Shown here: in pieces, positions 12,001 through 30,000 of the stretch
Layout of the letters: the number at the start of each line of letters is the position of its first letter
Position numbering within the stretch: position 1 is the stretch's first letter
Source of the DNA: Candidatus Omnitrophica bacterium UBA2593
GTDB taxonomy: Bacteria; Omnitrophota; Gorgyraeia; Gygaellales; UBA2593
Direction of reading: 5' to 3'
NCBI GenBank assembly: GCA_002340085.1
Contig: DDKR01000153.1
Coordinates: 1 to 35,758 of the forward strand
Length of the DNA stretch: 35,758 bases
Notes under the pieces: generated by a model
Seen by the model: only the letters and a program-made list of their open reading frames with translations
Databases searched by the model: none
Told to the model about the DNA's origin: nothing
Program-made: the position numbers and the translations under genes

Positions 12001-15000
12001 TTATACTTCTTATACCTTTACTACCCAACGGCTCTTTACTACTATTGGAGAAATAGTCGGGGACTTAGAAAAGGAAGAAACTTATGCGAAAAATAACTTT
12101 TTAAAAGCACTAAATGCGATTTTGAATCCTTCTTCAAATTTTTCTTCACAATTAAATACTCAACTATCAGAGAAAAGTAGTCTTTTAACTGATGCTTCCA
12201 TTGTGGTTAAAGAAATAGATGAAGCTATCAGAGTAAATAAGATTGAGCTATCCTCTTCTCAAACCCAAGCTGTGCAAGATGTCTTAGCTTTAGCAGTTAA
12301 TCCCGTAGTAGACCTTGGTGATGACCATGAGCCTGTTTCATACGGATATAAGAGGTTACACCGGATTGCCCAAGGAAAGGCTTGGATTGAGTATCATCTC
12401 GGCTCTACGCAGAGTAAAGATTTCATCAGTAGGATGCCTTACTATGCTCAGGAATCGAGTGCTTGGATAGGAAGATACCTGGGAATAAATGAGAGTTGGA
12501 ATCCAGTTTTATTGAATCCGGTCTCCTGGATTCCAATCTCGAGAATAAGGAGATTTGTCCTTACCTATAAAGATCGGGGAGTAGAAAGTCTCTACAAACA
12601 AGCTTTAATAAATCCCGTAAAGTATGAGAGAAGCTTAAGAGATATTTCTCGGTTTATCTCTCCTGGACGACCTGATTACGCTTCTATTTTCTCCTCTCTT
12701 GTTCTTCCATCCGCATTTTTATCTTCCAAAGTACTTACTAGCTTAGGGTTAGGAGCAACCCTTTTAAGTTCTCCATTTATACTTGCACCTACAGCAGCTC
12801 TCTTAGGTTTAATTCCCGCTCATCTTTTAGCTAAATACTTAGCCGAACACTGGGGAAGAGATGATAATTTTGCCCGCATAAGTAAACAGTTAGATAATAT
12901 CACTGATAATAGGGAGTTAAGAGAATATCTCTTATCTTTGCGTTTAGCAGCCCAAAGAGCTCGGGAAGAAAATCTCAGCCAACTTTCTCAGTGGAAGAGG
13001 GTTCCTCAGTCTTTGCGTCCTCTTTCTCCTTTTGGTTCTTTCTATACTAAATTAGATAAGAGAGAGTCAGCAAAGAAGCCTTTTGAAGCCACAGTAGCTG
13101 AATACTATACTCCTGCTTCTTATGCTCCTCGATTATCTACTACTGAAAAGATAAAGAGAGTTCATGAGTTTTTTAAGGGAGTAGATAGCAAGAGAGCAGA
13201 GAAATTTAATTTAAAAGAACTTATTGAATATCTCCAACTTTCTCCCGGAGAAAAAATCCATAAATTCAATAAGTATTTTAAGCTTGATTTTACAGAGGAG
13301 TGGAAAGAGATCCAGGAAAAATCAGAGCAGAAAAGATCTTCCTTAGCTACAGTTAATCTAATAAAACAGGGACTCTTTAATGAAAAAGAGAGAAGGTTTT
13401 CTCTTCTACAGGTCCTCGCTGCCACAACTGAACCTATCAAGCAGGCAGATTTCAATTTTATTACAAAGAGTTTTCAGCTCCAAGGTAGACTTTCAGAATC
13501 TAGGCCTAAGAACGATAAGGAGATCCAAACCAACCAAGAGATCATTAACTCTGCTTTAGAAGAGATTGTTTCTTTAGCCGACAAACTTAGTTTCAAACAA
13601 AGAAGAGAAGAGTTGTTAAGAGAAGCAAACACAGGTGAAGTAATTAGGAGGATAAATAAGATTCTGGAGGGTAATGAAGATTTTGGGAAAAAACTCCAAG
13701 CCATATATGAACTTTCTGCAGATGAAATTTTCAATTCATCAGAGCGCCAAGAAGCTTTAGAATATTTGTTACCAAAGCAAGCCAACCAATTACCAAATCA
13801 AGCCAACCAAAAGGTAGATTTATCTTCTTTAGAGCAAGCCCTGAACTTTCTTAAACAAAGTCTAAGATATGCTCAAGAAGAAGCAGAGAAGAGTATAAGT
13901 GATGATATGGTAAAAGCAGTATGTGAAAAGATGCCGGGGAAAAAACTCAAAGATCTTAAAAAAGAGTTAGAAGGTGATTTAAGCTACTCTATCTATAGTA
14001 TTCTTACCTCACAAAGTTCATCTGAAAAACCATTCCTTAAGAAGATTTCTCAGATCGAAGCTTTAGCTGAAATTACTGCTTCTGATTGGATCTATCACTT
14101 AAGAGCAAAACAGGAGATCCATAACTCGCTTAGAGAGGCTTCGAAAGACAAAGAAAATACCACATTAAAAAATATCCCTCAAGAAGATTTCCTCAAGTCC
14201 CTCACTGAAAAATACTACATCTCTCCTCAGCAGATCTCTTCCTTACGCCAGCTCTTCAGGGATTTTAAACATCTGCTTGAGATGCAATTCAAAGCCAAAG
14301 ATGAGAAGGATAATATTAATCTCTCTTTCTATGAAAAAGGTTATTATGAGGTTAGCCTACCACTCATAGAAGAAGTATCTAAAGAAGTTACTGGTTTGCT
14401 TAAGGATTGGGTAGAAGGTAAGAATTTAGATAAAATTTGCTCTTCTTCTGAAAAATTAAAGGAATTTCCTTCTCTCATTGAGAAGACCGCAGTCTTAAAG
14501 GAAAATTTAGCTACCTATGAGAAAGAATTAGGTATTCCTCATCAAAGAGCAATAGATTTCTCTAAGCAACCTCAAGAAGCTTTTGAGCTTTTAGGAATAA
14601 GAGGAGTCGAGCTAAAAGTAGATGAAAAAGTAGAAACAAGAAAGCTTCTTTTAGATAAACTTAATACCGCAATCCCCTTACGTGCCCAAGGACTCCTTCC
14701 TTTTGGAATAAATCTTTTACAAGTTTCTACGCCCCAAGAAGACCCTATCCTTCAAGAGATAGAAAGAGATCTCAGCAGTCCTATTCAACAAGACATTCAA
14801 AATAAAGTCTATGAGACTATCCTTCAATTCCCCCAACTAAAAAAGTATCTAAAAGATAAAGTCGATGATCCTCTGAGTGTAGATAAAGCGATGGAGAAGG
14901 TCAAAGAATTGTTCTCTGAAGGCAAGATCTCTTTAAAACTTGCTTCTTCTCATATCGATACAGTAAAACTCATTGATCGGACTACAGAAGGTAAGGGTTA

Positions 15001-18000
15001 TGAAGTATGGGTTCCTTTGGAAAGATTTCAGATTACTTTAGGTGAAGGAGGCAGATTCGGATTTAAACTGAGAGATGTAGGAAGATTAGAGGCTCGACAC
15101 GAGATATTAGGACACTTATTCGCTAAATTTTTAGGCATACCCTTAGGAGAGTCCAGAGATGCAATCTGGGGGTATAATGCTACTGAACAGGTAGCCTTAA
15201 CCCTTACCTCTGTCGATGCTATAGAGTGGGCGAAAAAAGGAAGAAGATTAACTCCTGACCAGATATCCTATATCCATGCAGTTACAAAGATCAGTCCAGT
15301 AACTCGACCTTCAAGATTGAGGTTCTGGTTAGAGAAACGTAAAAATTGGGATAATGAAAAAGATGCTTATATGGATTCGATGCGGTTATTTTATTTTGCC
15401 CAGGCAAAAGGTGATGATTCTCTTGCTGAAATTCTTTCCCATAAACTGTTAAAAGGATTTGGGAAAAAAGTTTCTCGTTTACCTTCACTTTCTTTTATAA
15501 GAGAGTATATTAACAGAAGAACTTCTTTTCTACCTCGACAGGGTTATAAAGCCTTCTCCCAAGGAGCAAAGAATACACTTGGCAAAAATGAAGGTACTAC
15601 ACCTATCGATGGAGAATGGATGAAATTAGAACCTCCTTCTTTGGCAAGATACTACTCTCTAAATTACCTTTCTTCATTCCATCCCCAAAAATCTGAACCT
15701 CCTTCTCTATTAGGTCCAGAAGGAGAAGATTCTCTCTATAAGGATTCTCTCTACTTAAATCAAAAATTAGATGAGATAGTTAAAGAAAAAGGAATTATTG
15801 AAGAAGTACTCAATGATGAAAATTTTAAGAAAAGAGTAAGAGAGAAAGCAGGTTATTATAGCCCCACAACATCAGCCTATTATGTAGAAACAAAAGGCAC
15901 CATCTTATACCGCGAGGGAAGAAATGCTTGGATAAGATTACACGAGATAAAACATGCCTTAGATGACATAGATTCTCCATACGGAAAACCCTCCCAAAAA
16001 CTAATAAATTTTTACCGTGAACTAAAATCCTTTTCTTTTGCTTTTGGACAGGGTGGAGATTTAACCGAAATAGAGGAGTCTTTAAGAAAATACGATAACC
16101 CCTTAGAGGACCTATTAGATTCACTCCTCTGCGAAGGAAAAACAGAGATATTTAGAAAAGACTTGAGTATAATTTTGAGACGTGCTGAAAAAAACCCTTG
16201 GTTTGATCAGATTAAGATCAATGGGTTTAAACAGGAGATGGGTTGGTCGGAAGGGAAATCGTCTTGGTCTATAGAAGAACTAAATAAGCCAGAGATTTTA
16301 AACCTTTTTGACAAGAGCGAGTTTGGTATAGCCACAGAACTCACTGCCTACATGTTCAATGGAGTAATCGAAGGAGATAAGGAGATTATTAAGTTTACTG
16401 ACTTCTTCTTAACCTGGCCTGAAGGACAAAAATTATGGAGAGATCACCTTGAGAAAATTGGCTTAGGTAAGATTGCTCAACTCCACATCGATCAAGTCCA
16501 ACAGAGAAAGAAGAAAGAAACTTCCTCTTCACCTTTTGTTCAATTAGGTATCCTTCAACAAAATCCTACTATAGGTATAGATAAGAATGGTAATGTCTTT
16601 GGTGGTGGTTATCCAGTTTGGGGACCATTTTATAATGAGGTATTAGAGCGATTAGGACAAATAACTCCTAAAATAGATAGGTATAGATCTTCTTCTTCAT
16701 TGTGCGAGGGGAAAAGAGAGAAGATTTTACTTACGGCTTTGGCAGGGATGTCCCCAGAAAATTTTAGAATTAATCCTCAGGATGATAATGATTCGGTGGG
16801 AAGAATTAGCTCTCAAATACCCACATCTGCCTCTCCTGTAGCCTTTAATAGGATTCTTGATTTGTTTGGAAGATATATCAATTCTTTTAAAAATTCTTTA
16901 ACTCTACCTGGCTCTTTAGCTAAGAAGGTGTATGATAGGTATAGGTTGGGTAAAAATAATAATGTAGAGAATATACTGAAGCAAGTTTTTAACAATCAAT
17001 TCTGGAAAGGAAAAGTAGAAATTCCAGAAAATTTACAGCGCCCCATTCTTCCTAATTTTGAATTTACCAAGATAATTCCAAATTTCCAGGAGTTGAAATT
17101 ATTAAATCTTACAGAACAAATAGAACAGATGAACCAAGGATTACTGTCCCTTTTTTCCTCTGTAGAACAAATGAATCAAGGAGTACCGCCTCTTCTCTCT
17201 TTGCGAATAAACCCTGATTCATTAGCGCAAAAAATAGCAGAGCTCAACATAGCAGAACTTAACAGAATAGCAGAGCTCAACATAGCAGAGCTTAACAAAA
17301 TAGCATCGCAAATATCGCAACAGAAGCCTATCTTCTACAGGAATTATATATCTTTTGGAAAATCTCCTGAAGAGAATGATGAAGTTGATTTCTATTCATT
17401 ACTATCTCAAGATAGATATTTTGGTGAAGGGTCCATTATTTCTAAATCCAGCATTCCTAAATTCGAGACTCCCGAAAGACTCAGGTTAAATACTACTAAA
17501 AGACAACTCCTATTTCCTGATTTTTCCTCTGTTACTCTATCAGGTCCTTCTTCTGCACATCATCTCAGTATCTCTGAACCAAAAAGAGGAACTAATTGGG
17601 CAAAGAGGAGCATAATAATAGGTTTACTTTTACTCTCTTTACTCCCTCTGAAAGATACTCCTAATAATAAATCAAACCTTTCGCCTTCTCTACTAATGCC
17701 TCCTTCCGTTGCTGATACCATTAAGCCCGAAGATATTATTTATACTGTTAAACCCGGAGATAGTCTCTGGAAACTTGCTAAGGAGCATTTTGGAGATGGT
17801 AGTGATTGGCGGAAAATTTTAGAGCTCAATCCCCAATTAAACGGTCGCTTAGGTAACCAATTAACACTAACTGGTGAGGAAAGAATAATAATTCAACCTG
17901 AAGAGCCAATTAAAATGCCCTCTCCAATTGGAAAAAGCTCAGTAGGTGTGGCATTTGTTGCCTCCTCTACATACATAGAAGTATCATTTACAGAGCAGTT

Positions 18001-21000
18001 AATGAGATGGATTGGAAAGGTATTATCACTAGTACTTGGCTTTGCTCCATTTCCATTAGGAATTATTCTTCCATCAGTGAAAATGAAAGGGGAGAAGGAA
18101 AGAGGAGTAGAGTTTGTTTCTTCCTTCCTCCCAATCTTTAATGATTCTCTGCTGGTTATTATGCTCGAGGAGGGAGCTAAGAGGGCAGTACTTCCGCTTA
18201 TCACTGAAGCCACCCCTATTGATGGTCTATCTTATCTCTTAATCAATGAAAAGAAAGAGTTTAGAAGAACGCTTACTACCCCCAGATCAACAACAGAAAG
18301 ATTTGAAGGTGTTGCTTTGCCACCTTACTCTATTATTTCAATCCCTGCACTCTTTAATATGGTGGCATTATCTCTTCTGAACTTTATTCCTAAACATAAT
18401 ATCTTAGGCGTCAACAACCTTTCTGGTTTTCTCTTACCAGTATTAACTGCACAGAAGAGAGATCAACGTTCTCTATCAATGGAGCAGCAGCGACTTGGAG
18501 TCTTGGAAATGGCTTTAGGAGCCCTGTTGTTAGCTATGATGAAAGCCTCTTCTTCATTGACTAATAGGCTGCTGGTGGTGATGTTCAATAGAGATAGTTT
18601 GCCGACTCCTCAAGGAGATTCTCAACAGAACCAACGGTCACAACGGCCAATTGGAATGCCACCTACAGGATCATCATCAATAAATGTAGGTGCAGTGGTG
18701 GGGAGTAGGAGTCAATCGACACCAGCACCATCAGAAATTAGTACAAGTCCATTAGATCCCAGTAAATTGGCTCAGATTGAAGATATAATAAACACTCTGC
18801 GATCTTTCATTGGAATGATATTAATGCGTGCTGGACCCATAAGTTCTGCGACAGCGTCATCTTGCGCAGACGCTCAGTCGCAAATAATAGCGCAAAATTT
18901 AGCTGTAATAGCTGTAATAATATTAGCTATATTAGGGAAGTGGAATAGATGTGAAGGAACCGGGAATACCCAAGGTCTGCCTGTAGGTGCAGATAGTCGA
19001 GGTATAACTGGAGATTCCGGAAAGAACTCTAAAAACAGATTCCGAGGTTCCAGTAGTGCGATTTTAGGTGAGCGTATAGCGGATAGCGTAGAGGATAGAG
19101 CAAGTATAAATACGTCTTCATCTCTAAATAATAGACCTCAGAAAGATCTCGCAGGAAACCATAGTTCCCTTAGTCCGCCTATACAGAGAAATGGTTCTCA
19201 AAGCTTAGGTAAATGGTCTAAGTTAATTATTCCTGAACTTGTCAGTGGGTTTAAGCGTCTTATTAATATAATTCTATCCACTCTATCCACAGAACCCCAG
19301 CGCCATTTTTCCAATGTTCTATCTGCGGTGGCAGTTTCAGGATTAAAAGTTAATGAGAACCTATTTCAGGCTACCATTCCTCCAGGAATTTTTGGGGGAG
19401 TCTCTTTAGCTATCCTTGGTTTGTTATTCATAGCAACGCTTGTAGGAATTGCTTATATAATTTTCAGCGCCAAGCCCCCAGCACAAAGTATTGGGGGAAA
19501 TACTTCTCCGCCATCTACTCTGAAAACTCAAGGTGTATATGGATATTCAAGGAATCCTCTATATACACTCTATCTTCTCTTGGCGGCGATTCTTACTATA
19601 TTTGGAATAGATGGTTTTGCTGAAGGGAAAGCTTGGGAAGGAGCCATCCTTATAGGTGTTGCAGTCTTCCTTACTCTTCCTTCTCTATTTTACCTTCCAA
19701 AAGAAGAGGGTGAATTACTATCTAAGTTTGAAGAGGCGTATAAAGAGTATAAAGAAAAAGTTCCACGTTTTGTCTCAACAAAGGTAGCGATTTGCACCTG
19801 CTCCATTTTATTATTCTTACTCTTAGGAACACTTGGTTGGTTAGATAGATGGGTTGATTCCATTGTTGATTTTATTACTCTGACCGTGACATTATCCTTG
19901 TTCACCTTATTCCCGTTATTCCTGCCAAGAATAACCACATCCTCATCTACAAAATTAATGGAGAAGGACTCCAATCAGATTAATGACTCTCCTCGGGCAA
20001 ATTCACCACTTACTATCTCCAACCTTGCCAGAAATTCAGTTCATCATCTAATTTTTCAGTTTAAAAAGATTCTTTTTGTGATTGTGATATCGTTTAAATT
20101 GCTAGTATCCGGCTATAATTTTGCTGTTCCTAATGCATTCTCGTCTCCTCCATCTGTTCCACCCGCTCAAGTACAAGTAGTAGAACAATTTTCTATTTGT
20201 GAGGCTTTAGGAGAGATAAGACAACTTGAAGGAATAGAGGTAGTTTATCTTGATGAAAAGAGGGTTTGGATTTTGATTAAAGAGAAGGGAAATTTAGAAG
20301 AATTAAAGCCAAAGATAGAAACTTTACTTAATAAGACAGGGTTATTCTGGAGAGGAGAAGAAGAAATTAATCCTGTCCCATTCAGATACATCTTTACAGT
20401 ATATCCCAATGTAGAAAAGGAAGAATTAGAGGTAAAGATAAAACCAAGGAATAACACGGTGGTTATTATTCAAGGAGAGTGGGCAGTGACTAGTGCTACT
20501 GATGAAAATTACAAGTTAGCTACTTGGGGTCTTGGTTCGTGTATTGGTGTATTGATATACAATCCTACTACTAAGATTGCGGCCATCACCCATGTTGATT
20601 TCGAAAATGCAGTCTTTTCTACTGTAAAAGAGATGCTTCTTGCAATAAGGACTGAAGGAAAAGATGAGATTCAAATATGGTTCACCGATAATATAGGTGA
20701 AATGGAAAAAACAGTAATCATCAGTCAATATAATTTGGACTATCGAGGTGATTTGCCGCGATCATTCGTGTTTGATACCAGAAACAGCGGACTTAGAAAA
20801 CTTTCAGAAGAGGAGATTAAAAGACTTGCCAACGATGAAACTTTAGATAAAAGACTAGGTCAAATAACCGATAAAAGAATAAAGAATTCAATTACATCTT
20901 GTATAGAAAGGTATGATGGTACTTCGTCTCCAATAACAAAAGGAAGGAGAACTTCTAAATCCAGAGGTCCCCAAAACGAAAGAAATCTTTTGTCCAGCAG

Positions 21001-24000
21001 AGGAGGATCTTCTAGTGCGATTGAGGTTGGGAAGAAAGGGATAGAATCGCTGTTGAATGGTAGAAGCACGCTATTTTCTTATTCTAATGAGCAAAAGAAA
21101 TCTAACCAAAGAAGTTGTTCTCCTCTTCGCGGTCCACCCAAAATTGGTGGAATTGGTAGCCTCGTCTCAACAGTTCTCGCCACCATCCTATTACCCGCAT
21201 TAATACCCCTTGCAATCATTGCTGGATTATCTTCCATTATTTCTGGTCTAATAGTTCAAAAAGGAATAATCAGTCTACCATTTCTCTTTGGGCTCACCGT
21301 GGAAGTCTCAAGAGAGATGGTTTTTGTTGCAAATGGGGTGTCCGTAGGAGTCCTAACCTCCAGGATGGCCCCTTCTACGGACCCCATTGCAACTATTATA
21401 GGAGGTGCATTATGTGTCCTATCAAGTTTGATAAATTACAGTTTGACCATATTGTCGAGTTTACCAATGATAATACTATCTTTGCTGCAGCCCGCCAAAA
21501 CAGTAGTCATAACAGCAATGGCCACCTTAGGCTATTTCTTATTAACCAGTCCACTGGCAATGTTTATTGTCGCAATGGTTGTGCTGATTCTTGGGAACAG
21601 CTTAGAGGCTCTACCCGTGATACCGTTATTGCTCAACTCATCGCTGCTCGCAACAACCATATCCCAGTCTATAGAATTAACGGGGGAGGGCTTCAATCGG
21701 ATTGAAGCCCCTTCTCCAGTTCAACCTGCTCTTGAAACCACCTCCAGTTCGATACAAAAGGGATCCCAGTTGAGTTTGTTTAAGAAAATATCTTCTGTCA
21801 AGAAAGGGAAATCTTATCCTTTTATAATTGCAGTAATACTTCCCATTCTTACATTTTTCCCCATCGTCAATACTTACCAACAATATAAGGTTAGCTATCT
21901 AAGAGATAAGGAGGCAATAGAGAAACTATTAGAGGAGAAATCAGATTTGCTTCATTATTATCATTCACATTTATCTTTTTCTAACATCCGTAGGATTTTG
22001 AAAATATGGATCAATTCTCTTTATCAAAATTCTGAACAAAAGAGAGAATTTCTAAAACATCTTTATAGATGTAAGTCTGTTGAGGAGATCATAGCTAATG
22101 ATAAATTGCCTGCCTTGATAAGGCTTTATGTAGGAGGGTTTATTAAAGGCGATGTATATGGCAACCGCTATCAATTATATCCAATAGCAAAACAACTCTT
22201 AAAGGAGACAGAAGATGAGAATATGTGGAAGTTACTTGCTTATCATAATAAAGTTACATCTCTTGGGAAAGTTACATCTCTTGGGTATAAGAGTATATTG
22301 TGTGATGATATAGTAAGAACTTATAGTCTTGCAGTGTTATTAATAATCGACCAAGAAATTCTAACAATTACAGAAGAAAAATTCCTAACAGCTATGGAAT
22401 ACATAAGATCTGCTCAGGTGTGTGGAGAAGCTCAGTCTTATATAATCAGAGCAAATAGAGAGTTAGTATTTGGAGGCAAAGAAATAGAAAAAGATAGGAA
22501 TATTAAATTCTTCTCAGGAACGATTGCTCATGAGATAGCACATATAATTGCTTATTGGCCCATCGAGGTCAGAGAAGTCGATGAATTCTTCGCAGATTTA
22601 GTTATGTTTGTCTTCTTCGAAAAAATGGGTTGGAAAGAAGATATTTGGATGTCTCAGCAAATGGTAAATTATAAGGAGGCTGTAGAATACGCTAAAGATA
22701 ATGGATGGGTAGTAAATAAGAAAGAACCACATACTATTGCGCGCACACAATTAAAGGTTATAGAAGATGCTATTAGAGAATATGAGGGCGAGGTATCTTG
22801 GGAAGAGATTCTTAAAGCTGCTTTAGATCCACGTTGGACGGATAAAAATCGCAACCGGTCGATAAATAATGGCTTAAATCTTTTCAGAGGTAATTCTATT
22901 GGCGATCTGTTAAACTCGAACTTAAAAAAGAAAATAACAAAGCGAATAGCTCAGTCTTATCCAGAAAAAGACTCTCCTATTTGGATAATAGCTAACCATA
23001 TGCTGGATGAAATCCTGAAAGATAATCACAAAAAGGATAGTATTGGAGAAAGGACAGGATATGGTAAGGTTAGGATTTATCGACCTCGAAGTAGATATAA
23101 AATAACATATAAGCAGGAGAAGGACGCAACAGTAATAATAAAGACAGATAGAGTAACTGGTAGTAAGGTAATTTCCCGCTATCCTACTAAGCCTATTCAA
23201 TACAGGAAGTCAAAGAATAAACCCTTTAGCTCTTCTCCTGTCGATACTTGGGCTATCGCTATAGGTTATGAAGGATTAGCTGGATTGTTTAATGGAATAA
23301 TTGATCTATTAAACCAACTATCTCTCTTATGGCTTGCCGTGGAGGCCTTAGGAGAGATGGTTTTTGTTGCAAATGGGGTGTCCGTAGGAGTCCTAACCTC
23401 CAGGATGGCCCCTCCTACGGACCCCATTGCAATTGGAGGAGGTGCATTATGTGTTCTATCAAGTTTGATAAATTACAGTTTGACCATATTGTCGAGTTTA
23501 CTAATGATAATACCATCTTTGCTGCTGCTCGGCAAAATGGTGGGTATAACGGAAACGGGCATCTCAGACTATTTCTTATTAATCAATCCACTGGCAATGT
23601 TTATTGTCGCAATGGTTGTGCTGATTCTTGGGAGCAACTCACTGGTTCTACCCGTGATACCGTTATTGCTCATCTCATCGCTGCGAAGAACAACCACATC
23701 CCTGTCTACAGGATTAATGGAAAGAGCCAGCAGTAGTCTACAGACCCAATCTACTTCTTCGCCACTGCACATTTTAGTCTTTGGCCCAGAACATTTAGCC
23801 CCGCAAATAAAACGCAAGATTAAAGAGAGATTTAAACAGATTGAGATTACCACCGTCGGAAATTATAATAGCTTTTTAGTAGACTTCGGTAAAAATAGAT
23901 TTCAGTTACTTATTATCGACGGTGTTACATTAAGTGTTACATTAAGTGAAAAAGGAGAAGTATGGGAGGAACTCGAAAGATTAATTAAAAAAGTAGTTGA

Positions 24001-27000
24001 GAAAAAGAGCAGACCAAGGATTATTATTCTATGTAGTAAAGATCTTGAACAGAAGATAGAGAAACTTAAGGAAGAGCATTCTTTAAAGATTGTATTTGTG
24101 GAGGACTATCCAGCGGGGAGCAATGTAAAAGGGTTTCTTGAAAGAATAAGAGAAGAACTGCACTTAAAAAAAGTAAGTTCACCACTGGTTAAGAATGTTT
24201 CTATTCCGATAGATGTGCGGTTAACTAAGGAGAATAGAAGGGATAGAATAGAAGCAATTATGGGCTCGCTGGGAGGATCAATTTTAAGTTTAAGTTTTCT
24301 TTACCTTCCGTGGCCGGTGGTGAGAGGATTTTTCTTCTCAGCGGGCCTAAGAAAATATCTTGCTCTATTCACTAGGAGTCCATCTCTTACATTCGCTTGT
24401 TTAATAACTGCTTCCATCTTCCTCACTTCAATCATATTCTTAGTTCTCAATTCTCAACTATTAACTGGACTTTTAACCCCGCCACCTATCTTAAGAGCTA
24501 CCGTGGCAGTTGTCTTAGGATTGATGGCTTTTGTTGTAATTTGGGAGAGGTTGGCAGTCCTAAACCTCCAGGAGACGGCCCCTGTCAACCTCCCTATTAC
24601 AACTAATACAGGAGGTAAAGAAGGAATTCAAACTGAGACTCCCAATCTTATTACCTCCAATCATGCTACTTTATCAATTAAGTCTATTATCTCCAGTCCA
24701 GTGGCTTCGCCGCTCATTACCTCCAGCCCTACCATGACAGCCTATACTTTAAGAAAGGCAAATAATTTAAGGGAGGAAGATTCACCACTCACCACCCCCA
24801 ACCTTACCATTTCCAGCTCTGTTACCTCATTTGAGGAATTTCTTGCTGGTATAAAGAAGTTAGAGGAGTGTCTGAAGGTTTTAGAGGAGTATTTAAAAGG
24901 AGCCCTTATTCCTACTATAGAAAAGACTACGAGAGAGATAGTAGATATTTTCAATAATCCCTCCTTTAAAAAGACATTAAGCAAATTTTTAAACGAGGAA
25001 ATCACCCATGAAATAAAGGCTGACTTGACTATAGTATGTGGGTATTGCCAGTTACAGGCATCAGAAGAAGAGAAAGAGCGTTCTATAGAAAAGCTCAATT
25101 CAATAAAAGCGCGCTTGATTGAAGTTAAAATAAAAGAAATTCTTTCACATTTTTCTTCTAGAATGGGATGGAGTGTTTTGATTTTGGCAGAGAATACCCA
25201 GAGATTAGAAGAACTTAAGGCGACATTCTCAAAATTAGGTGAATCAGAGTTAGTAAGTAAGACAGAAGAAATAATAAGAATTTGTAGACAAGAAGTCACC
25301 CTTCAACAGAAAAGCGAGTCTTACCTCGAGGCTACAGAGATAATTAACTCCATCCAAGATAAGCTTTCACCCGAAGGAAGTCAAATTGAACCCTCCACAG
25401 CTCAGACAACTTCACCACTCAAGATTGCTTTTAGTCCAATGGGTTTGTTGTCAGTTAGAGTCAAAAGAGATATAATAGGAGCAATTGTGGGTCTGCTGGG
25501 AGGAATTTTAGGTTTTTTCTACCTCACGTGGCTGGTGGGGAGAAAATCTATCTTTCCAGCGGGCCTAGAAAAATATCTTGCTTTACTTATTCACAGTCCA
25601 CCTCTTACATTCAGCTGTTTAGTAGCTACTTTCATCCTTCTTAACTCAATAAACTCAATAGATCTATCTCTAATCCCATCCTCAATCTCCAATCCTCAAT
25701 TATTAATTGGATTCTTAACCCGGCCACCTATCTTAAGAGCTACCGTGACAGTTGTCTTAGGATTGATGGCTTTTGTTGTAATTTGGGAGAGGTTGGTAGC
25801 CTTAACCTCCAGGATGGCCCCTGCCAACCTCCCTATTACAACTGATGGAGGAGACAAAATTTCTTATTATTCCTTGAGGAATACTGTAGAGAGAGAGCTT
25901 AAAGAGAAAAGGCTTGATTGGTATTTTATCTTCAGGAGGATTAAAGACCAAGGTTTTTCAGCTGCTTCGCCTATCAGGATAAAGAATGTGGTAATAATAG
26001 GAGTTCTAATAGTAGCATCACTTTTTGGGTTGTTAAAGTGCAGGGATTTTTTAAGAAAGCAGGATGAAATGCTTGAGGCAATGGAGATTCTTCGGGAAGG
26101 AAGAGAATCCACTTTTGGTCCGAGTTTTGGCGTGCTTTCACCAGAAGCCTTAAAAGAATTGATAAACTCCAAAACCTCTTATTCTCATCCAAGGTCGGTT
26201 ATGGAGTTGGTAGATAAATTGGCTTCTCTCTTTGGTGTATCTCCTACTGATGAACAAAGGTATGATTGTTTACTGAAGATTCAGACGATGGAAGGAAAAA
26301 TCAACGGATACAAAGGTTATATTTCAGAATTAGAAAGACGCTTTGGTTTACCTTCTGGGATAATGGGTGCAATTATAAGAGCAGAGATGTTTGGCTTAGC
26401 ACCTTTTGAAGAATTCACTGATTCTATAGGAGGGGTACTTACAGGAAAGACTTCTATAGGTCCTACTCAGGTGAGGATAGATACTGTGCGGATGTTATAT
26501 CCAGAGTACAGAAAAGCTTCTAACTTCAGGATTACTCAACTTCTTCAGGATGATAAATTTGCCCTTGAAGCAGGAGCAAAATATATACAGTGGTTAGTTA
26601 AAAAGATGGGGTTAGATCTTAAGAATTCTGGAGATCGGTTAAGGCTTTGGGTTGCTTATACAGCAGGACATCAATCACCGGCTTTTAAAGAAATCAGAAA
26701 ACCTCCATTTAGAAGAAATTTTAAAAAGGAAGATTGGGTTGCCAATGAAGCATGGGCTTATGCCTATGTAGCGGAAGCATTTTGCCGATACTTATCTACA
26801 CGGGCTTCTTCTGAGGCCTCTTCATCTTCTGTGGCTGATGAGAAGAAATCTGTTTTCTTAAAAGGATGTCGTGCAGTTAGAATCACCAGTTTAGCATCAG
26901 CAATTTCATTTTTAGGAACAATTCCTTTATTTACTCCTTTGGTGTCTTTTGCTACGGTATTGGCGGTGGGGATAGCTGTTTATTATGGGATGAAGAAGAT

Positions 27001-30000
27001 TGTTGGGTTTGTTAAGGTTGGTTTGGTCTTTAATCCTCAGCAAAACTCAAGGAAAGATGAGCTTGACGAGACTGGAGTTGGAGCTGAGATTAAAGAATTA
27101 ATTGATAAGTTTGGGAGAGTGTTGGAGGAAGTTCTAATAGGGAGAGGAGATAAATATTCTGAAGATATTTTTGCTGAGCAGTCTGAGGTAGCTTTATTGG
27201 TTCAGTCTACAAAGCAAGTAGTAGAGATTGCTTGTTCTAAAGGTAAGACATATATCTTAGCTTTAGCAGCTCTAATCAAATACCGTACAACGGGTATTCC
27301 TTCCTTGGCCTTTGTTCCTGCTTTTGGTTTAGGTTTAGATGCCTTTGAGAAACACAGGATACATCAGATATTAGGTAAGGTTGATCCTAATTTTAAGGTG
27401 GGTTTGGTAGATTTTGCTGAGGGAAAGGGTAAAATCTATGATGGGGATGGCGAATGGAGAGAAGTTAGTATAGCTGAAGTTTATAGCAAGTGTGGTTTGG
27501 TCTATAGTACAGTAGAAGATACAGTGCATAATTATTTAAGCGAGCATCTATCCCGAGAAGATAGAGACTTAGCTTTAATTACTCGCAAATGGTGGGTATT
27601 CTTTGATGAAGTGCATTTGACTTTGTTGGGTGAGCGCTTAGGAAACCCATTTGTTATCTCTGAGATGACCAAGCAATATTCAGAAGTTGTAGAAGAAGCC
27701 AATGATATAGCAAGAGAACTTTATGAGTTAGTGGAAAAAAATGGGGCTCTTCTGAAGAGCGAATATCATAGGATAGATGAGAAGGATAGGAAGGTAAAAC
27801 TTACTAGAATAGGAAGTAAATTTGTAAAAGAAAGACTTAAAAAGACAAAGTTATTGAGAAATCGGGGTAATTGGAAAGACTTTGTAGATACTGCCTTATG
27901 TGCTTGGTTCTGTTATAAAGAAGGTAGAGATTATCTTCATAATCCTGGTTTACCAGAGGGAGAAGAGATTTCCATCATTAGAGAGAGTGGAGAGAGAGGA
28001 AAAGAATCTTACAGCCATGGTTTACATCAGGCAATTCGTGCTAAACACGGCTATAACCCATTCAGAGATGGAAAGACTATTGCCTCAATTATGTTAATGG
28101 GTTTCCTAAGTGATCTGGAAGTGGTAGAAGGTTACTCAGGAGTGAGCGGGACCATAGATAGAGAAATGGCAAATGCTTTAGGATTAGGGGTTCAGATTAT
28201 TGAAGAAAAAGAGAAGCCAAATATCGTTCAAGAAGGATTTATTCGGATGTCAGTAAAACCAGATATTCAAGGATTGGTAGAGATTGTAGTAGAAAAAGTT
28301 AAGAGAGGACAGCCGGTTTTAATAAGGGTAGAAGATATTTCTCGGGTTGAAAAGGTAAAGGAAGCTTTAAAGGTAGAAGGCCTGGAGATAGAAGTGAAGA
28401 GTTTAGATGCCAGGACTGAAGCTGGTGAGAGACAGAGAATCCTTGAGAGTGCAGGTAAACCAGGAGCAGTTACTGTTGTTACTGCTGCGGGCAATACAGG
28501 TATAGATATCAGTCTTATGGAAGAAGCGATTGAGAAAGGCGGTTTGACAGTTATAGCGTTTGGCCTCTTGGAAGACAGATTGCAAGAGATACAACTGATG
28601 CGACGGGCAGCAAGGAGGGGAGAACCGGGAGAGTTTATTGTTTTCGGTTCACTTGAAGATAGAGTAGTAAGGCTTTATGCTAAGGATTATATCCCGGTGG
28701 CTAAAGGAATTTTAGAGAGAGCAGCAAAAGGTGATAGAAAAGCTCAGATTAAAGTTAGAAAAGTGGTTATGCAATTGCGTAAGACAATTAAAGATGCGAG
28801 ACTTCAACAGATCAGAAGGAGAGTTAAGATAGAGCAAATGATTACCCAAGCTTGGCAGAGGCGTTGTAATTTGAGAGAGAACATTAAGAATGGTTTGCTG
28901 GTAGAGGCTGTGGCGAAACTGATCGGTGTAGAGTTGAATGAGGAGAAGAAAGAGCAATATCAACAAGCAGCTTTAGAATTACTAGATAGGTATTGGGTTG
29001 AGTTTATTGCACGGTGCGATGAAGCAAGATATCAGCTGCTCAATAGATTTGGTTATGATTACACAGAGTGTCAAGGTATTCTGCAATTTCCAGTTGATTC
29101 GCAGTATATGAAAGAGGTAGGTAGATACACCGACGAGTTTATGTATTATACAGAAGCTAATACTTTCCTCTATATGTTGAAAGAAGCAGGAAAGAGTTTA
29201 GATGATTTGAATCTTAAGAGATCCTTCATTTACTGGTTTAAGAGAGTAAGGAATTTTGTTGTCCAAAAAAGTCCAGTTGTTATAGCTGCTGTAATTTTAT
29301 CCTTTGTAGTCTATGGGTTATACCGTCTGAGTTTTGGTTTATTTGGGCTTATCTCAACTCCTACACAACCCTCTGGTTTTGCCCGGGTTTTGATTGATTT
29401 TATTGTTAGTCTGTCTGCTCTTAATCAGGTATCATTGGTTGCAATCATAGTGATTGCGATGGTCTTTCTCTTATTCATTAATCGCAACCTTATCTTTCCG
29501 GCTTTAGCTAAAGACAGAAGCGAAAACTCGTTATCCGATGCTCTGTTTGGAATAAAGACAGAAAACCAGAATTTGACTTCATTCTCCCTCGCAGTTTACA
29601 AGAAGGTCTATCCAGTTATTGCACAGATTAGTACAGGAGTATCTCTAGTTATATTCGGCTTGTCTATTTTCACTGGTAGTAATTTGCTACTGAGTACAGT
29701 AGCATTTATCTCTATCTTCGCTTTAGGACTAGCTTTAATTACTTTGAGTGATTCAGGGTTAAAGGCATATATAAGACAAAATAGGATTTCTCTGCCATCT
29801 ACCTTGTTTGGGAGTTACGCTTACTATTTTGCTTTTAGTATCTTGGTTTATCTGGGAGTAATCTTTGGATTAGGTTATTTTGGCATTACTCCTGTGGTTA
29901 TGGATATGAGTATCTATTTGAGTATAGTTATCTTAGGGGGTGGGCTCCTTGCTTATTTCATCTATATGATGAATCAGTATTTGGATAGACGGTTTAATGA

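What the first reader, a model, noticed from the sequence alone, without database searches (positions are those of the whole stretch)
21401..21705. A complete small gene (SD + ATG + 97 codons + TGA) sits in the -1 frame inside the giant ORF, which stays open through it
GGAGGU (21401-21406), a 5-nt spacer and ATG 21412 open a 97-codon ORF in window frame 1 that ends at TGA 21703-21705. Its translation is hydrophilic and globular-looking (MCPIKFDKLQFDHIVEFTNDNTIFAAARQN...NVYCRNGCADSWEQLRGSTRDTVIAQLIAARNNHIPVYRING). Frame 2 has no stop over the same 294 nt, where it reads as hydrophobic helices (GGALCVLSSLINYSLTILSSL ... SPLAMFIVAMVVLILG ... LPVIPLLL). Elsewhere in this window, off-frames rarely stay open for 60 codons. 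A nearly 100-codon stretch open in two frames, with a canonical initiation context for the second frame, therefore suggests a genuine overlapping (overprinted) gene. I know of no description of nested out-of-frame genes inside bacterial giant genes.
Basis: seen in the sequence. Interest (0 to 1): 0.9.

Follow-up and report, generated by a model that had tools for sequence, protein, structure and literature searches.

The report
Small gene nested inside giant gene
A conserved ~90-residue protein gene, with its own ribosome-binding site and a new structured RNA in front of it, sits out of frame inside the giant genes of Omnitrophota bacteria, and selection maintains both reading frames.

Summary
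The whole window is one open frame-2 ORF of at least 11,919 codons. ATG 21412 to TGA 21705 is a 97-codon ORF in frame 1, behind AGGAGGTG.

- **Paralogue.** A second copy lies at 23449-23736. Between the copies, 32 of 48 substitutions fall on frame-1 third positions. Frame-1 dN/dS is 0.09; frame-2 is 1.6.
- **Family.** The protein belongs to a ~90-aa family with no Pfam, PDB or fold match. AF2 gives pLDDT 84. I found it in 43 loci of Omnitrophota-type MAGs plus several metagenome contigs.
- **Nesting.** In every locus it lies in the -1 frame of a multi-kilobase ORF.
- **Giant frame is kept open.** Host codon usage predicts 3-6 giant-frame stops per copy; none occurs. NTA codons before a purine number 0 of 714, against 60 of 401 before a pyrimidine.
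- **Giant-frame peptide.** Over the overlap it is unconserved, so the "hydrophobic helices" are largely a by-product.
- **Origin.** Distant homologues are ordinary free-standing cistrons between large ORFs, so the giant ORF probably grew across an existing gene.
- **New RNA.** A ~135-nt structured RNA not matched in Rfam, with strong covariation, precedes the SD. Its loop carries an anti-SD sequence. The window holds four copies.

The function is unknown. Nested out-of-frame genes have precedents (comS, rpmH, gndA).

The parts
2..35758 (+). Giant ORF, frame 2. It is open over the whole window (11,919 codons) and cut at both ends. Pfam finds LysM, SecA preprotein-binding and P-loop domains, peptidase M23, subtilase S8 and TPR.
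21268..21399 (+). Structured RNA element, copy A. It has two long hairpin domains. The apical loop of domain 2 carries ACCUCC, which is complementary to the SD. The covariance-model hit spans 21268-21414, so it includes the SD and ATG.
21400..21407 (+). Shine-Dalgarno AGGAGGTG of small ORF copy A. The giant frame reads it as Gly-Gly.
21412..21705 (+). Small ORF copy A, frame 1: 97 codons plus TGA.
23311..23436 (+). Structured RNA element, copy B. The covariance-model hit spans 23311-23451.
23437..23444 (+). Shine-Dalgarno AGGAGGTG of small ORF copy B.
23449..23736 (+). Small ORF copy B, frame 1: 95 codons plus TAG. It is 86% identical to copy A by BLAST (88% in the MAFFT alignment).
24475..24624 (+). 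Structured RNA element, copy C. No small ORF follows it, but a GGAGG remains after the element.
25717..25863 (+). Structured RNA element, copy D. No small ORF follows it, but a GGAGG remains after the element.
19879..19983 (+). Decayed relic of the C-terminal third of a third small-ORF copy (...AKNNHILIYKINGEGLQSD*). Frame 1 upstream of it is full of stops, while the giant frame stays open.

Best explanation
ATG 21412 to TGA 21705, and its paralogue at 23449-23736, is a real protein-coding gene. It encodes a ~90-residue folded protein.

**Shown**
- The gene lies entirely inside the giant ORF, one base behind it in phase.
- The small frame evolves under strong purifying selection.
- Across the nested clade (Omnitrophota-type MAGs) it always has an ATG and a near-perfect Shine-Dalgarno sequence at optimal spacing.
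- The giant frame through it is kept free of stops by selection on the small gene's synonymous sites. Its amino-acid sequence there is otherwise unconstrained.
- A ~135-nt RNA structure with heavy covariation sits directly upstream. It has two long hairpin domains; the loop of domain 1 is GUGGCA, and domain 2 carries a UGACCCC bulge and an ACCUCC loop.
- More distant homologues of the protein are ordinary free-standing cistrons between large ORFs.

**Inferred**
- Ribosomes initiate independently at the internal SD and ATG, on the giant mRNA or on a sub-transcript.
- The giant ORF arose, or grew, by reading across a pre-existing small gene and its leader. The overlap region serves the giant protein only as a loosely constrained linker.
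- The RNA element regulates access to the SD. Its ACCUCC loop can pair with GGAGGU. Output of the small protein would then be gated by ribosomes that unwind the structure while translating the giant frame, or by a bound factor, possibly the small protein itself.
- The small protein acts with the giant protein or its mRNA. This is a guess.
For: **Small frame is selected**
- Between copies A and B, 48 substitutions fall 7/32/9 on giant-frame codon positions 1/2/3. That puts 32 on small-frame third positions, and 28 of the 36 substitutions downstream of the ATG.
- NG86 dN/dS is 0.088 in the small frame and 1.63 in the giant frame.
- There are 35 close homologues of 89-99 aa with E down to 1e-37, and 18 invariant alignment columns.
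- Across 44 ORFs the pairwise differences at codon positions 1/2/3 are 0.32/0.24/0.57.
- AF2 gives pLDDT 84.2 and pTM 0.75.

**Independent initiation**
- All 44 copies have an ATG. GGAGG is present in 41 of 44, with a 6-nt spacer in 36. Fourteen of 44 have a small-frame stop within 10 codons upstream of the ATG.

**Nesting is conserved**
- In 43 of 43 genome loci and in five distinct metagenome contigs, the frame one base ahead of the small ORF is open through it. That frame usually runs thousands of codons in both directions.

**Giant frame is selected to stay open**
- With host codon usage, 2.6-6.7 stops per copy are expected. P(open) is at most 0.03 in each of the 25 copies tested. None is observed.
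- NTA codons followed by a purine: 0 of 714. Followed by a pyrimidine: 60 of 401.
- Free-standing homologues do have stops in both other frames.
- At the decayed relic at 19879-19983, frame 1 is closed but the giant frame is still open.

**RNA structure**
- RNAalifold on an unfitted MAFFT alignment predicts 25 pairs, 15 with compensatory changes.
- The covariance model hits lie upstream of the small ORF in nearly all loci, on the + strand only.
- On the model alignment, 86.9% of cells are paired, against 63.9% when shuffled and at most 50.6% when slid. Forty of 41 pairs show double changes. The covariation score is 0.558 against 0.186, exceeded by 0 of 500 shuffles.
- The giant frame reads domain 1 in different registers in different lineages, so that conservation is not protein-level.

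**Origin**
- Free-standing homologues occur in L054, L057 and L058 between large ORFs.
Against: - There is no direct evidence of translation: no Ribo-seq, proteomics or transcript ends.
- The function of the protein is unknown. Pfam, NCBIfam, PDB sequence search and Foldseek against PDB and BFVD all gave no match.
- The pairing between the anti-SD loop and the SD is between two nearly invariant sequences, so covariation cannot test it.
- RNA elements also occur without a small ORF: window copies C and D, and tandem arrays in L012, L020 and L044. SD control therefore cannot be the element's only role.
- The covariation counts were made on an alignment fitted to the model, which inflates them somewhat.
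- The "giant ORF grew across a gene" scenario rests on a few distant free-standing homologues. Their flanking ORFs show no detectable similarity to the giant proteins, and their neighbours sit in different relative frames.
Confidence: 0.85

Rival explanations
1. The module (structured RNA plus small ORF) is a selfish or mobile element. It spreads within and between giant genes and survives there because it can be read through in frame.
For: - The window holds several copies: two complete, two RNA-only and one relic.
- Other loci carry tandem arrays of the RNA element.
- Homology between copies A and B has sharp boundaries, at about 21277 and 21690, inside otherwise unalignable flanks.
- The giant-protein flanks are not alignable between genomes, and the module's position relative to the LysM and M23 domains varies.
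Against: - There is no similarity to any transposase, integrase, endonuclease or reverse transcriptase.
- No relatives were found in 2.9 million viral contigs.
- Every copy found is on the same strand as the giant ORF, and every small ORF is in the same relative frame.
- No terminal repeats or target duplications are visible.
- Close relatives were never found outside a giant ORF.
- Internal duplication and gene conversion within a repetitive giant gene explain the copy number equally well.
Confidence: 0.12
2. The open frame-1 stretch is a by-product of composition. Hydrophobic giant-frame codons (NTN, NCN) cannot create stops in the -1 frame, and the GGAGG and ATG are chance.
For: The region is the most hydrophobic part of the giant protein. 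Only 12% of its codons can form a frame-1 stop, against 31% gene-wide.
Against: - The synonymous shuffle still expects about 8 stops, and P = 0.0005-0.001.
- Frame 1, not frame 2, carries the wobble pattern and the low dN/dS.
- The family has 35 close and 188 profile-level homologues.
- The SD and ATG are conserved in 44 copies from genomes of 40-61% GC.
Confidence: 0.01
3. The small frame is reached by programmed -1 ribosomal frameshifting from the giant frame. This would give a truncated giant protein with the 90-residue domain at its C-terminus, in the manner of dnaX.
For: - The small ORF is in the -1 frame.
- An internal SD-like sequence and nearby RNA structure are classic stimulators of frameshifting.
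Against: - Fourteen of 44 copies have a small-frame stop within 10 codons upstream of the ATG, some within 1-5 codons.
- There is no conserved slippery heptamer between the SD and the ATG; that spacer is variable.
- The ATG is invariant, which a frameshift product would not need.
- The RNA structure lies upstream of the putative shift site, not downstream.
- Free-standing homologues start at the same Met.
Confidence: 0.02
4. The giant ORF is not translated through the module. The module would be removed at the RNA level (intron-like) or would mark a boundary between separately made polypeptides, so there is no true dual coding.
For: - A strongly structured RNA inside an ORF recalls introns and ribozymes.
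- In four loci (L013, L020, L026, L029) the giant ORF changes frame within a few hundred to about 1,900 nt of the module.
Against: - The giant frame is stop-free through the small ORF in all copies, although 3-6 stops are expected, and the codon avoidance is context-specific (0 of 714 NTA before a purine). If the segment were spliced out or untranslated, nothing would maintain this.
- All 55 RNA element copies checked lie in an open giant frame.
- No Rfam intron or ribozyme model matches, even at E <= 10.
Confidence: 0.03

Closest known systems
comS inside srfA (surfactin synthetase) of Bacillus subtilis (D'Souza 1994 and Hamoen 1995, as cited in PMC11230408)
   Same: A small gene lies wholly inside a very large multi-domain gene, on the same strand and in another frame. 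It has its own start, and its product is functionally distinct.
   Different: - comS encodes 46 aa (from my own knowledge) and is confined to Bacillus. The protein here is ~90 aa with a confidently predicted fold, and is conserved at 42-75% identity across loci in 42 species-representative MAGs, nearly all labelled Omnitrophota.
- Here the host frame over the overlap is essentially unconstrained, whereas comS overlaps a functional enzyme domain.
- Here a conserved structured RNA precedes the gene, and the module is repeated within one host gene.
rpmH (L34) nested out of frame in rnpA in Thermus; gndA in gnd of E. coli (PMC11230408)
   Same: Same-strand nested out-of-frame genes, with conservation of the SD, start and stop among relatives.
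   Different: The hosts are ordinary-sized genes whose overlapped parts are functional protein. No structured leader has been described for them. gndA encodes only 36 aa and has a narrow taxonomic range.
Overlapping genes of small phages (phiX174 E within D; MS2 lysis gene), including control of internal starts by RNA structure and by upstream translation (from my own knowledge)
   Same: There are two frames plus RNA structure in one stretch. Initiation at an internal start is plausibly gated by secondary structure that passing ribosomes open.
   Different: Those cases come from genome-size pressure in tiny viral genomes. Here the host is among the longest ORFs known in bacteria, and the arrangement looks like an ORF fusion across an existing gene. 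No coupling has been shown here.
Giant genes of Omnitrophota ('archaeovorin'-type; West-Roberts 2023, bioRxiv 10.1101/2023.11.21.568195; Seymour 2023, PMC10066038)
   Same: The host ORF fits this group. It is open for more than 35 kb, carries SecA-like, peptidase and LysM domains, has many predicted membrane segments, and its relatives are Omnitrophota MAGs.
   Different: - Neither paper, nor the 2026 complete-genome preprint (10.64898/2026.06.07.730766), contains the terms I searched for (nested, embedded/internal or overlapping ORFs) in this sense.
[quoted passage not shown]
SD-sequestering leaders, such as riboswitch expression platforms, ribosomal-protein leaders and the IS200 tnpA hairpin (from my own knowledge)
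   Same: A conserved structure lies immediately 5' of a strong SD and contains a sequence complementary to it.
   Different: - The element lies inside a translated ORF.
- It matches no Rfam family.
- It also occurs without a downstream small ORF and in tandem arrays.
- No ligand or protein partner is known.

Membership tests
Same-strand nested out-of-frame gene (comS / rpmH / gndA type) | The ORF lies wholly inside a longer ORF on the same strand, in a different frame | tested here: met
   21412-21705 (frame 1) lies inside the frame-2 ORF that spans the window. The same holds in 43 genome loci.
Same-strand nested out-of-frame gene (comS / rpmH / gndA type) | Own start codon and ribosome-binding site, conserved among relatives | tested here: met
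   ATG in 44 of 44 copies. GGAGG in 41 of 44, with a 6-nt spacer in 36.
Same-strand nested out-of-frame gene (comS / rpmH / gndA type) | Purifying selection on the nested frame | tested here: met
   dN/dS is 0.088 in the small frame and 1.63 in the host frame. Third-position variability is highest across 44 ORFs. There are 35 close homologues.
Same-strand nested out-of-frame gene (comS / rpmH / gndA type) | The host frame is kept functional or open through the overlap | tested here: met
   No stops against 2.6-6.7 expected per copy. NTA before a purine: 0 of 714.
Same-strand nested out-of-frame gene (comS / rpmH / gndA type) | The product is shown to be made (peptides, Ribo-seq, genetics) | not testable with these tools
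Omnitrophota giant genes | ORF longer than 20 kb | tested here: met
   At least 35,757 nt open, cut at both ends.
Omnitrophota giant genes | SecA-like DEAD/P-loop and preprotein-binding domains without the rest of SecA, plus cell-wall-degrading domains | tested here: met
   Pfam finds SecA_PP_bind, P-loop_SecA, LysM, Peptidase_M23 and Peptidase_S8. These features are as described in 10.1101/2023.11.21.568195.
Omnitrophota giant genes | Taxon is Omnitrophota | tested here: inconclusive
   The origin of the window is unknown. The loci that carry the same nested module are nearly all labelled Candidatus Omnitrophota.
Programmed -1 frameshift site (dnaX type) | Slippery heptamer with the shifted frame open upstream of the shift site | tested here: not met
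   The SD-to-ATG spacer is variable and has no slippery motif. Small-frame stops lie within 10 codons upstream of the ATG in 14 of 44 copies.
Any Rfam 15 RNA family (riboswitches, ribozymes, introns, leaders) | Covariance-model match | tested here: not met
   Only chance-level hairpin hits (E >= 0.16) in window 20900-24000 and L028 5700-6350.
Cis-regulatory SD-sequestering leader | Conserved secondary structure supported by covariation, directly 5' of the SD | tested here: met
Cis-regulatory SD-sequestering leader | Demonstrated alternative pairing that occludes the SD, and a trigger for it | tested here: inconclusive
   The ACCUCC loop is complementary to GGAGGU in nearly all copies. Both are invariant, so covariation is impossible. 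The element also exists without a small ORF.
FG-GAP / beta-propeller repeat proteins | Match to Pfam FG-GAP or FG-GAP_3 above threshold | tested here: not met
   The profile of the small protein hits FG-GAP repeat proteins over residues ~21-66. Only 1 of 37 members touches FG-GAP_3, at E = 0.12. Foldseek gives no significant hit.
Mobile elements (IS, MITE, intron, intein, phage) | Encoded mobility enzyme, terminal repeats, or presence on viral or mobile replicons | tested here: not met
   No family hits. No relatives in the viral contigs. The repeat scan of 20500-24500 found only short chance-level inverted repeats around the copies; I did not scan the copy boundaries specifically for terminal repeats.

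The most novel reading that the evidence does not exclude
Giant genes of Omnitrophota carry a repeated three-layer module: a new structured RNA, a strong internal ribosome-binding site, and a conserved ~90-residue protein, all read through by the giant frame. The module would act as a dedicated internal control or assembly device for synthesis of the giant protein. For example, the small protein might bind the RNA elements spaced along the >100-kb mRNA, or escort the nascent giant chain, with its output coupled to ribosome passage. Such a module would be a new kind of gene-within-gene regulatory architecture. It would also mean that some of the 'transmembrane helices' predicted in these giant proteins are coding by-products.
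Probability: 0.3. Interest if true: 0.9.

Novelty: new variant of a known kind. Interest (0 to 1): 0.8.

Why it matters
- **A clean natural case of dual coding.** Bacterial same-strand nested genes with solid evolutionary support are very few (comS, rpmH, gndA). This one is conserved across 43 loci in 42 species-representative genomes, nearly all labelled Omnitrophota. It encodes a full-size, confidently folded protein, and both frames show measurable and different kinds of selection.
- **How giant genes grow.** It points to a route by which the longest bacterial genes extend: by reading across neighbouring genes.
- **A caution for annotation.** Parts of these proteins, including predicted membrane helices, may be unconstrained read-through of other functional elements.
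- **A new RNA.** It reveals a strongly supported structured RNA that no Rfam model matches, inside ORFs for which an earlier Rfam screen found no catalytic RNA domains (Seymour 2023, PMC10066038).
- **A blind spot in gene calling.** The small protein was called only on contigs that happen to begin just upstream of it.
- **Handles for experiments.** The module is the most conserved sequence in these otherwise fast-evolving genes. It gives concrete targets (peptides, an RNA, an SD) for studying the expression of giant genes.

Tried and rejected
- **Compositional by-product.** I computed which giant-frame codons can create frame-1 stops and ran a synonymous shuffle. Composition helps but cannot explain the stretch.
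- **Frame-1 peptide as a frame-shifted copy of another part of the giant protein.** No similarity was found.
- **Known protein family or fold.** Pfam on single sequences and on all 37 members, NCBIfam, PDB sequence profile, and Foldseek against PDB and BFVD all gave nothing significant. A weak lead to FG-GAP-like blades did not meet the Pfam threshold.
- **Known RNA family.** Rfam at E <= 10 gave only chance hairpin hits, both on the window copies and on a canonical copy.
- **RNAalifold on the first 32-sequence MAFFT alignment.** It recovered only the CCUC/GAGG pairing because the variable stems were misaligned. A cleaner 12-sequence alignment and a covariance model solved this.
- **Sigma-70 promoter or terminator scan around the module.** Nothing rose above shuffled expectation upstream of the RNA element. 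The conserved AT-rich TAAATTTAACC patch 5' of the element remains uninterpreted.
- **DGR, retron, integron attC, REP/RAYT and ribozyme analogies.** I considered these from memory. I dropped them because the substitution pattern is not adenine-specific, there is no reverse transcriptase or HUH enzyme, the repeat polarity differs from attC, and no Rfam model matches.
- **Conserved position within the giant protein.** The flanks of other loci are not alignable to the window's giant protein by blastp, so this could not be established.
- **Viral contigs.** No relatives were found.
Full report
**1. Checking the observation**

The window is a single open reading frame in frame 2: 11,919 codons with no stop, running off both ends. 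Pfam finds LysM, SecA preprotein-binding and P-loop domains, peptidase M23, subtilase S8 and TPR repeats along it. That is the domain repertoire described for the giant genes of Omnitrophota (10.1101/2023.11.21.568195).

AGGAGGTG lies at 21400-21407, ATG at 21412 and TGA at 21703-21705, giving 97 codons in frame 1. The stop-to-stop opening in frame 1 is in fact 181 codons (21160-21702). It is the longest + strand off-frame stretch in the window, and the next longest, 143 codons at 23305-23733, turns out to be related.

**2. Is it chance?**

A stop in frame 1 needs a giant-frame codon that starts with AA, AG or GA, preceded by a codon ending in T. The region is the most hydrophobic part of the protein. 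Only 12% of its codons are stop-capable, against 31% overall. That helps keep frame 1 open but does not suffice. I ran 2,000 synonymous shuffles that keep the giant protein sequence. About 8.2 frame-1 stops are expected in the stretch. P(longest run >= 181 anywhere) is 0.001, and at this place it is 0.0005.

**3. An internal paralogue decides which frame is selected**

The segment 21277-21690 has a copy at 23317-23727 that is 87-91% identical, with a single 3-nt indel. The frame-1 translations are 86% identical, and the frame-2 translations 61%.

Of the 48 substitutions, 7, 32 and 9 fall on giant-frame codon positions 1, 2 and 3. Two-thirds therefore hit the third position of frame 1. Downstream of ATG 21412 the figure is 28 of 36. 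Upstream of the ATG there is no such periodicity.

Nei-Gojobori estimates give dN/dS = 0.088 in frame 1 (dS 0.71) and 1.63 in frame 2. Frame 1 is thus the frame under purifying selection, and that selection starts at the ATG.

**4. A conserved protein family, always nested**

The 97-aa product finds 35 proteins of 89-99 aa at 55-75% identity, with E down to 1e-37 and no Pfam domain. The alignment has 18 invariant columns.

A pattern scan of one genome per GTDB species gave 43 loci. Nearly all are labelled Candidatus Omnitrophota, with GC from 40 to 61%. In all of them the frame one base ahead of the small ORF is open through the small ORF. In 39 it runs to the end of the fetched flank, or for thousands of codons, on both sides. 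In the other four (L013, L020, L026, L029) the giant ORF simply switches frame a few hundred to about 1,900 nt away. That is what a single indel or an assembly error would produce. Five distinct metagenome contigs behave the same way.

Across 44 copies, the ATG is invariant. GGAGG is present in 41, with a 6-nt spacer in 36. Fourteen have a small-frame stop within 10 codons upstream of the ATG. This argues for independent initiation and against entry by frameshifting. Pairwise differences at small-frame codon positions 1/2/3 are 0.32/0.24/0.57.

AlphaFold2 with the family alignment gives a confident model: pLDDT 84 and pTM 0.75, with five strands, a helix and a final strand.

**5. The giant frame is also under selection, but only to stay open**

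I resampled each small ORF's codons from the host's own usage, keeping the small protein fixed. Between 2.6 and 6.7 stops are then expected in the giant frame, and P(open) is at most 0.03 in each of the 25 copies tested before the script failed. None has a stop.

The signature is context-specific. Small-frame NTN codons followed by a purine never end in A (0 of 714). When followed by a pyrimidine, 60 of 401 do.

The giant-frame peptide over the overlap is not conserved between genomes. It is a Ser/Thr/Leu/Ala/Pro-rich string with mean hydropathy from -0.6 to +1.5.

A natural control lies at 19879-19983. It is a decayed relic of a third copy (...AKNNHILIYKINGEGLQSD*). Frame 1 upstream of it is full of stops, while the giant frame remains open.

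**6. Origin**

A profile search of 1.84 billion cluster representatives finds 188 proteins, mostly 83-110 aa and aligned end to end. For four of the more distant ones I could see the gene neighbourhood, three of them with DNA: L054 on a 914-kb Omnitrophota contig, L057, and L058/L059. For the fourth, P0085, only the gene table was available.

In the three with DNA, the gene is an ordinary free-standing cistron with its own SD, sitting between large ORFs of about 500-2,300 aa. Both other frames are interrupted by stops inside it, and no copy of the RNA element is detectable.

The simplest reading is that the small gene came first. In the nested clade, the giant ORF came to read across it. This explains why the small frame is constrained and the giant frame is not. 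It is an inference from few cases. The flanking ORFs show no similarity to the giant proteins, and their relative frames differ.

**7. A new structured RNA in front of the gene**

The roughly 135 nt before the SD are conserved at the nucleotide level and fold the same way in every lineage.
- **Domain 1.** An outer stem (AGCCGC/GCGGCU type), a variable stem, and a UUCC/GGAA stem capped by a GUGGCA loop.
- **Domain 2.** UUGUUGU/ACAACAA, then two long variable stems, a 3' bulge UGACCCC, and an apical loop containing ACCUCC.
- **Linker.** An A-rich linker then leads to AGGAGGUG.

RNAalifold on an unfitted 12-sequence MAFFT alignment predicts 25 pairs, 15 with compensatory changes.

A covariance model with 41 pairs finds the element upstream of the small ORF in nearly all loci, always on the + strand. 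It also finds extra and tandem copies, for example three each in L012, L020 and L044.

On the model alignment of 59 copies:
- 86.9% of cells pair, against 63.9% in shuffles and at most 50.6% when partners are slid.
- 40 of 41 pairs show double changes.
- The covariation score is 0.558 against 0.186, reached by 0 of 500 shuffles.

The alignment is fitted to the model, so these numbers are somewhat generous. The unfitted result points the same way.

Rfam 15 has no matching family at E <= 10.

All 55 copies checked lie in an open giant frame. However, the register in which the giant frame reads domain 1 differs between lineages. The conservation is therefore at the RNA level and not in the giant protein.

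The window has four copies:
- A, 21268-21414
- B, 23311-23451
- C, 24475-24624
- D, 25717-25863

C and D have lost the small ORF but keep a GGAGG.

**8. How it most likely works**

What is shown:
- Two frames and an RNA structure are simultaneously maintained over about 430 nt.
- The small gene has all the signals of an independently initiated cistron.

What is inferred:
- 30S subunits start at the internal SD and ATG, on the giant mRNA or on a sub-transcript.
- The ACCUCC loop, which mimics the 3' end of 16S rRNA, can pair with GGAGGU and mask the SD. RNAalifold's only consensus on the broad alignment was exactly this pairing.
- Expression of the small protein may therefore be gated. The gate could be ribosomes that melt the structure while translating the giant frame, as in the translational coupling of RNA phages. 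It could instead be a factor bound to the RNA, perhaps the small protein itself.

Because the element also occurs without the small ORF and in arrays, it probably has a further role. Candidates are mRNA stability or processing, polymerase processivity, or a protein-binding site. I cannot distinguish these.

The protein's function is unknown. Its central ~45 residues weakly resemble one FG-GAP-like propeller blade, but the Pfam threshold is not met and Foldseek finds nothing.

**9. Rivals**

- **Chance or composition.** Refuted, as shown in sections 2-4.
- **Programmed -1 frameshifting.** Unlikely, because of the close upstream stops, the absence of a slippery site and the invariant ATG.
- **Removal of the module from the mRNA.** This would leave the stop avoidance in the giant frame unexplained.
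- **A selfish or mobile module.** Not excluded. The evidence for it is multiple copies, tandem arrays, sharp homology boundaries, and a variable position relative to domains. However, there is no mobility enzyme, no viral relative, and a strictly constant strand and frame. Duplication and gene conversion inside a repetitive gene would do as well.

**10. Comparison with what is known, and novelty**

Same-strand nested out-of-frame genes are a known but very small class in bacteria: comS in srfA, rpmH in Thermus, gndA in gnd (PMC11230408). By every sequence-level criterion this is a member of that class. Expression remains to be shown. It differs in five ways:
- **Size and fold of the product.** It is a ~90-aa protein with a confidently predicted fold.
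- **Breadth of conservation.** It is found in 43 loci from 42 species-representative genomes, nearly all labelled Omnitrophota.
- **Direction of constraint.** The nested frame is constrained, and the host frame serves only as a linker.
- **Structured RNA.** A novel RNA is embedded in the same ORF.
- **Repetition.** The module is repeated within one host gene.

Term searches of the two main papers on Omnitrophota giant genes and of a 2026 complete-genome preprint found no mention of nested ORFs. [quoted passage not shown] A library search for Omnitrophota plus "overlapping gene" returned nothing relevant.

I rate it a new variant of a known kind, of high interest.

**11. Practical side-notes**

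Gene callers report the small protein only on contigs that begin 41-126 nt upstream of its ATG, that is, inside the RNA element. Elsewhere the giant ORF masks it. The repeat may also break assemblies. Between genomes, the module is the most conserved part of these otherwise unalignable giant genes.

Noticed in passing
window 24475-24624 and 25717-25863: Two further copies of the structured RNA element (E = 1.6e-7 and 2.9e-4 with model R1). They are in the same giant frame. Each is followed by a GGAGG but by no ATG or small ORF. They look like modules that have lost the gene.
   Followed up: partly
window 19879-19983: A decayed relic of the C-terminal third of a third small-ORF copy. It ends in the same GLQSD* as copy A. 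Frame 1 upstream is full of stops, the giant frame is intact, and no RNA element is detectable upstream.
   Followed up: yes
L054 8001-8309; L057 4307-4597; L058 2270-2563: Distant homologues of the small protein are free-standing cistrons between large ORFs. Both other frames carry stops, and no R1 RNA element is found. In L054, two terminator-like hairpins with T-runs lie just upstream of the gene, inside the called upstream ORF.
   Followed up: partly
L012 5430-5930; L020 2236-2688; L044 5702-6446; L016 5428-5739; L051 409-956: Tandem arrays of two or three RNA elements, all inside the open giant frame. In L016 and L032 a degenerate second small-ORF copy sits between the RNA element and the intact small ORF.
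   Followed up: partly
about 10-25 nt upstream of each RNA element (e.g. L023 5825-5845; window 24455-24478): A conserved AT-rich patch (TAAATTTAACCCAGCCG consensus) lies immediately 5' of domain 1, even in GC-rich genomes. It could be a -10-like promoter box, part of the RNA, or a conserved giant-frame peptide (NLTQP). The sigma-70 scan of the window gave nothing there.
   Followed up: partly
contig starts in L001-L007 and L051-L053: Every metagenome contig on which the small ORF had been called as a gene begins 41-126 nt upstream of its ATG, inside the RNA element. This suggests gene-caller masking by the giant ORF, assembly breaks at the repeated element, or both.
   Followed up: partly
window 21686-21711: A perfect 10-bp hairpin (GGGCTTCAAT-CGG-ATTGAAGCCC) spans the TGA of small ORF copy A. 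The C-terminal GLQSD* it encodes is shared with the relic at about 19960-19983, but copy B lacks it. No T-run follows.
   Followed up: no
window 22250-22285: A perfect tandem duplication of 18 nt (AAAGTTACATCTCTTGGG, twice), in frame in the giant ORF.
   Followed up: no
small protein residues ~21-66 (window 21472-21609): The family profile also hits multi-repeat FG-GAP (beta-propeller) proteins, over this segment only. Foldseek's weak top hits include designed propeller and trefoil proteins. This may be a single blade-like unit that oligomerises. It is below all thresholds.
   Followed up: partly
window, - strand (e.g. 4180-4743, 24745-25302, 9304-9855): Many antisense open stretches of 100-188 codons, all in one antisense frame. 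This is the usual by-product of an AT-rich coding strand. I did not examine them further.
   Followed up: no
L013 2470-2645; L020 1301-1326; L026 4145-4406; L029 313-337: The giant ORF switches reading frame, with short overlaps of the two open frames, within a few hundred to about 1,900 nt of the module. These could be assembly indels, genuine ORF boundaries or frameshift sites.
   Followed up: no
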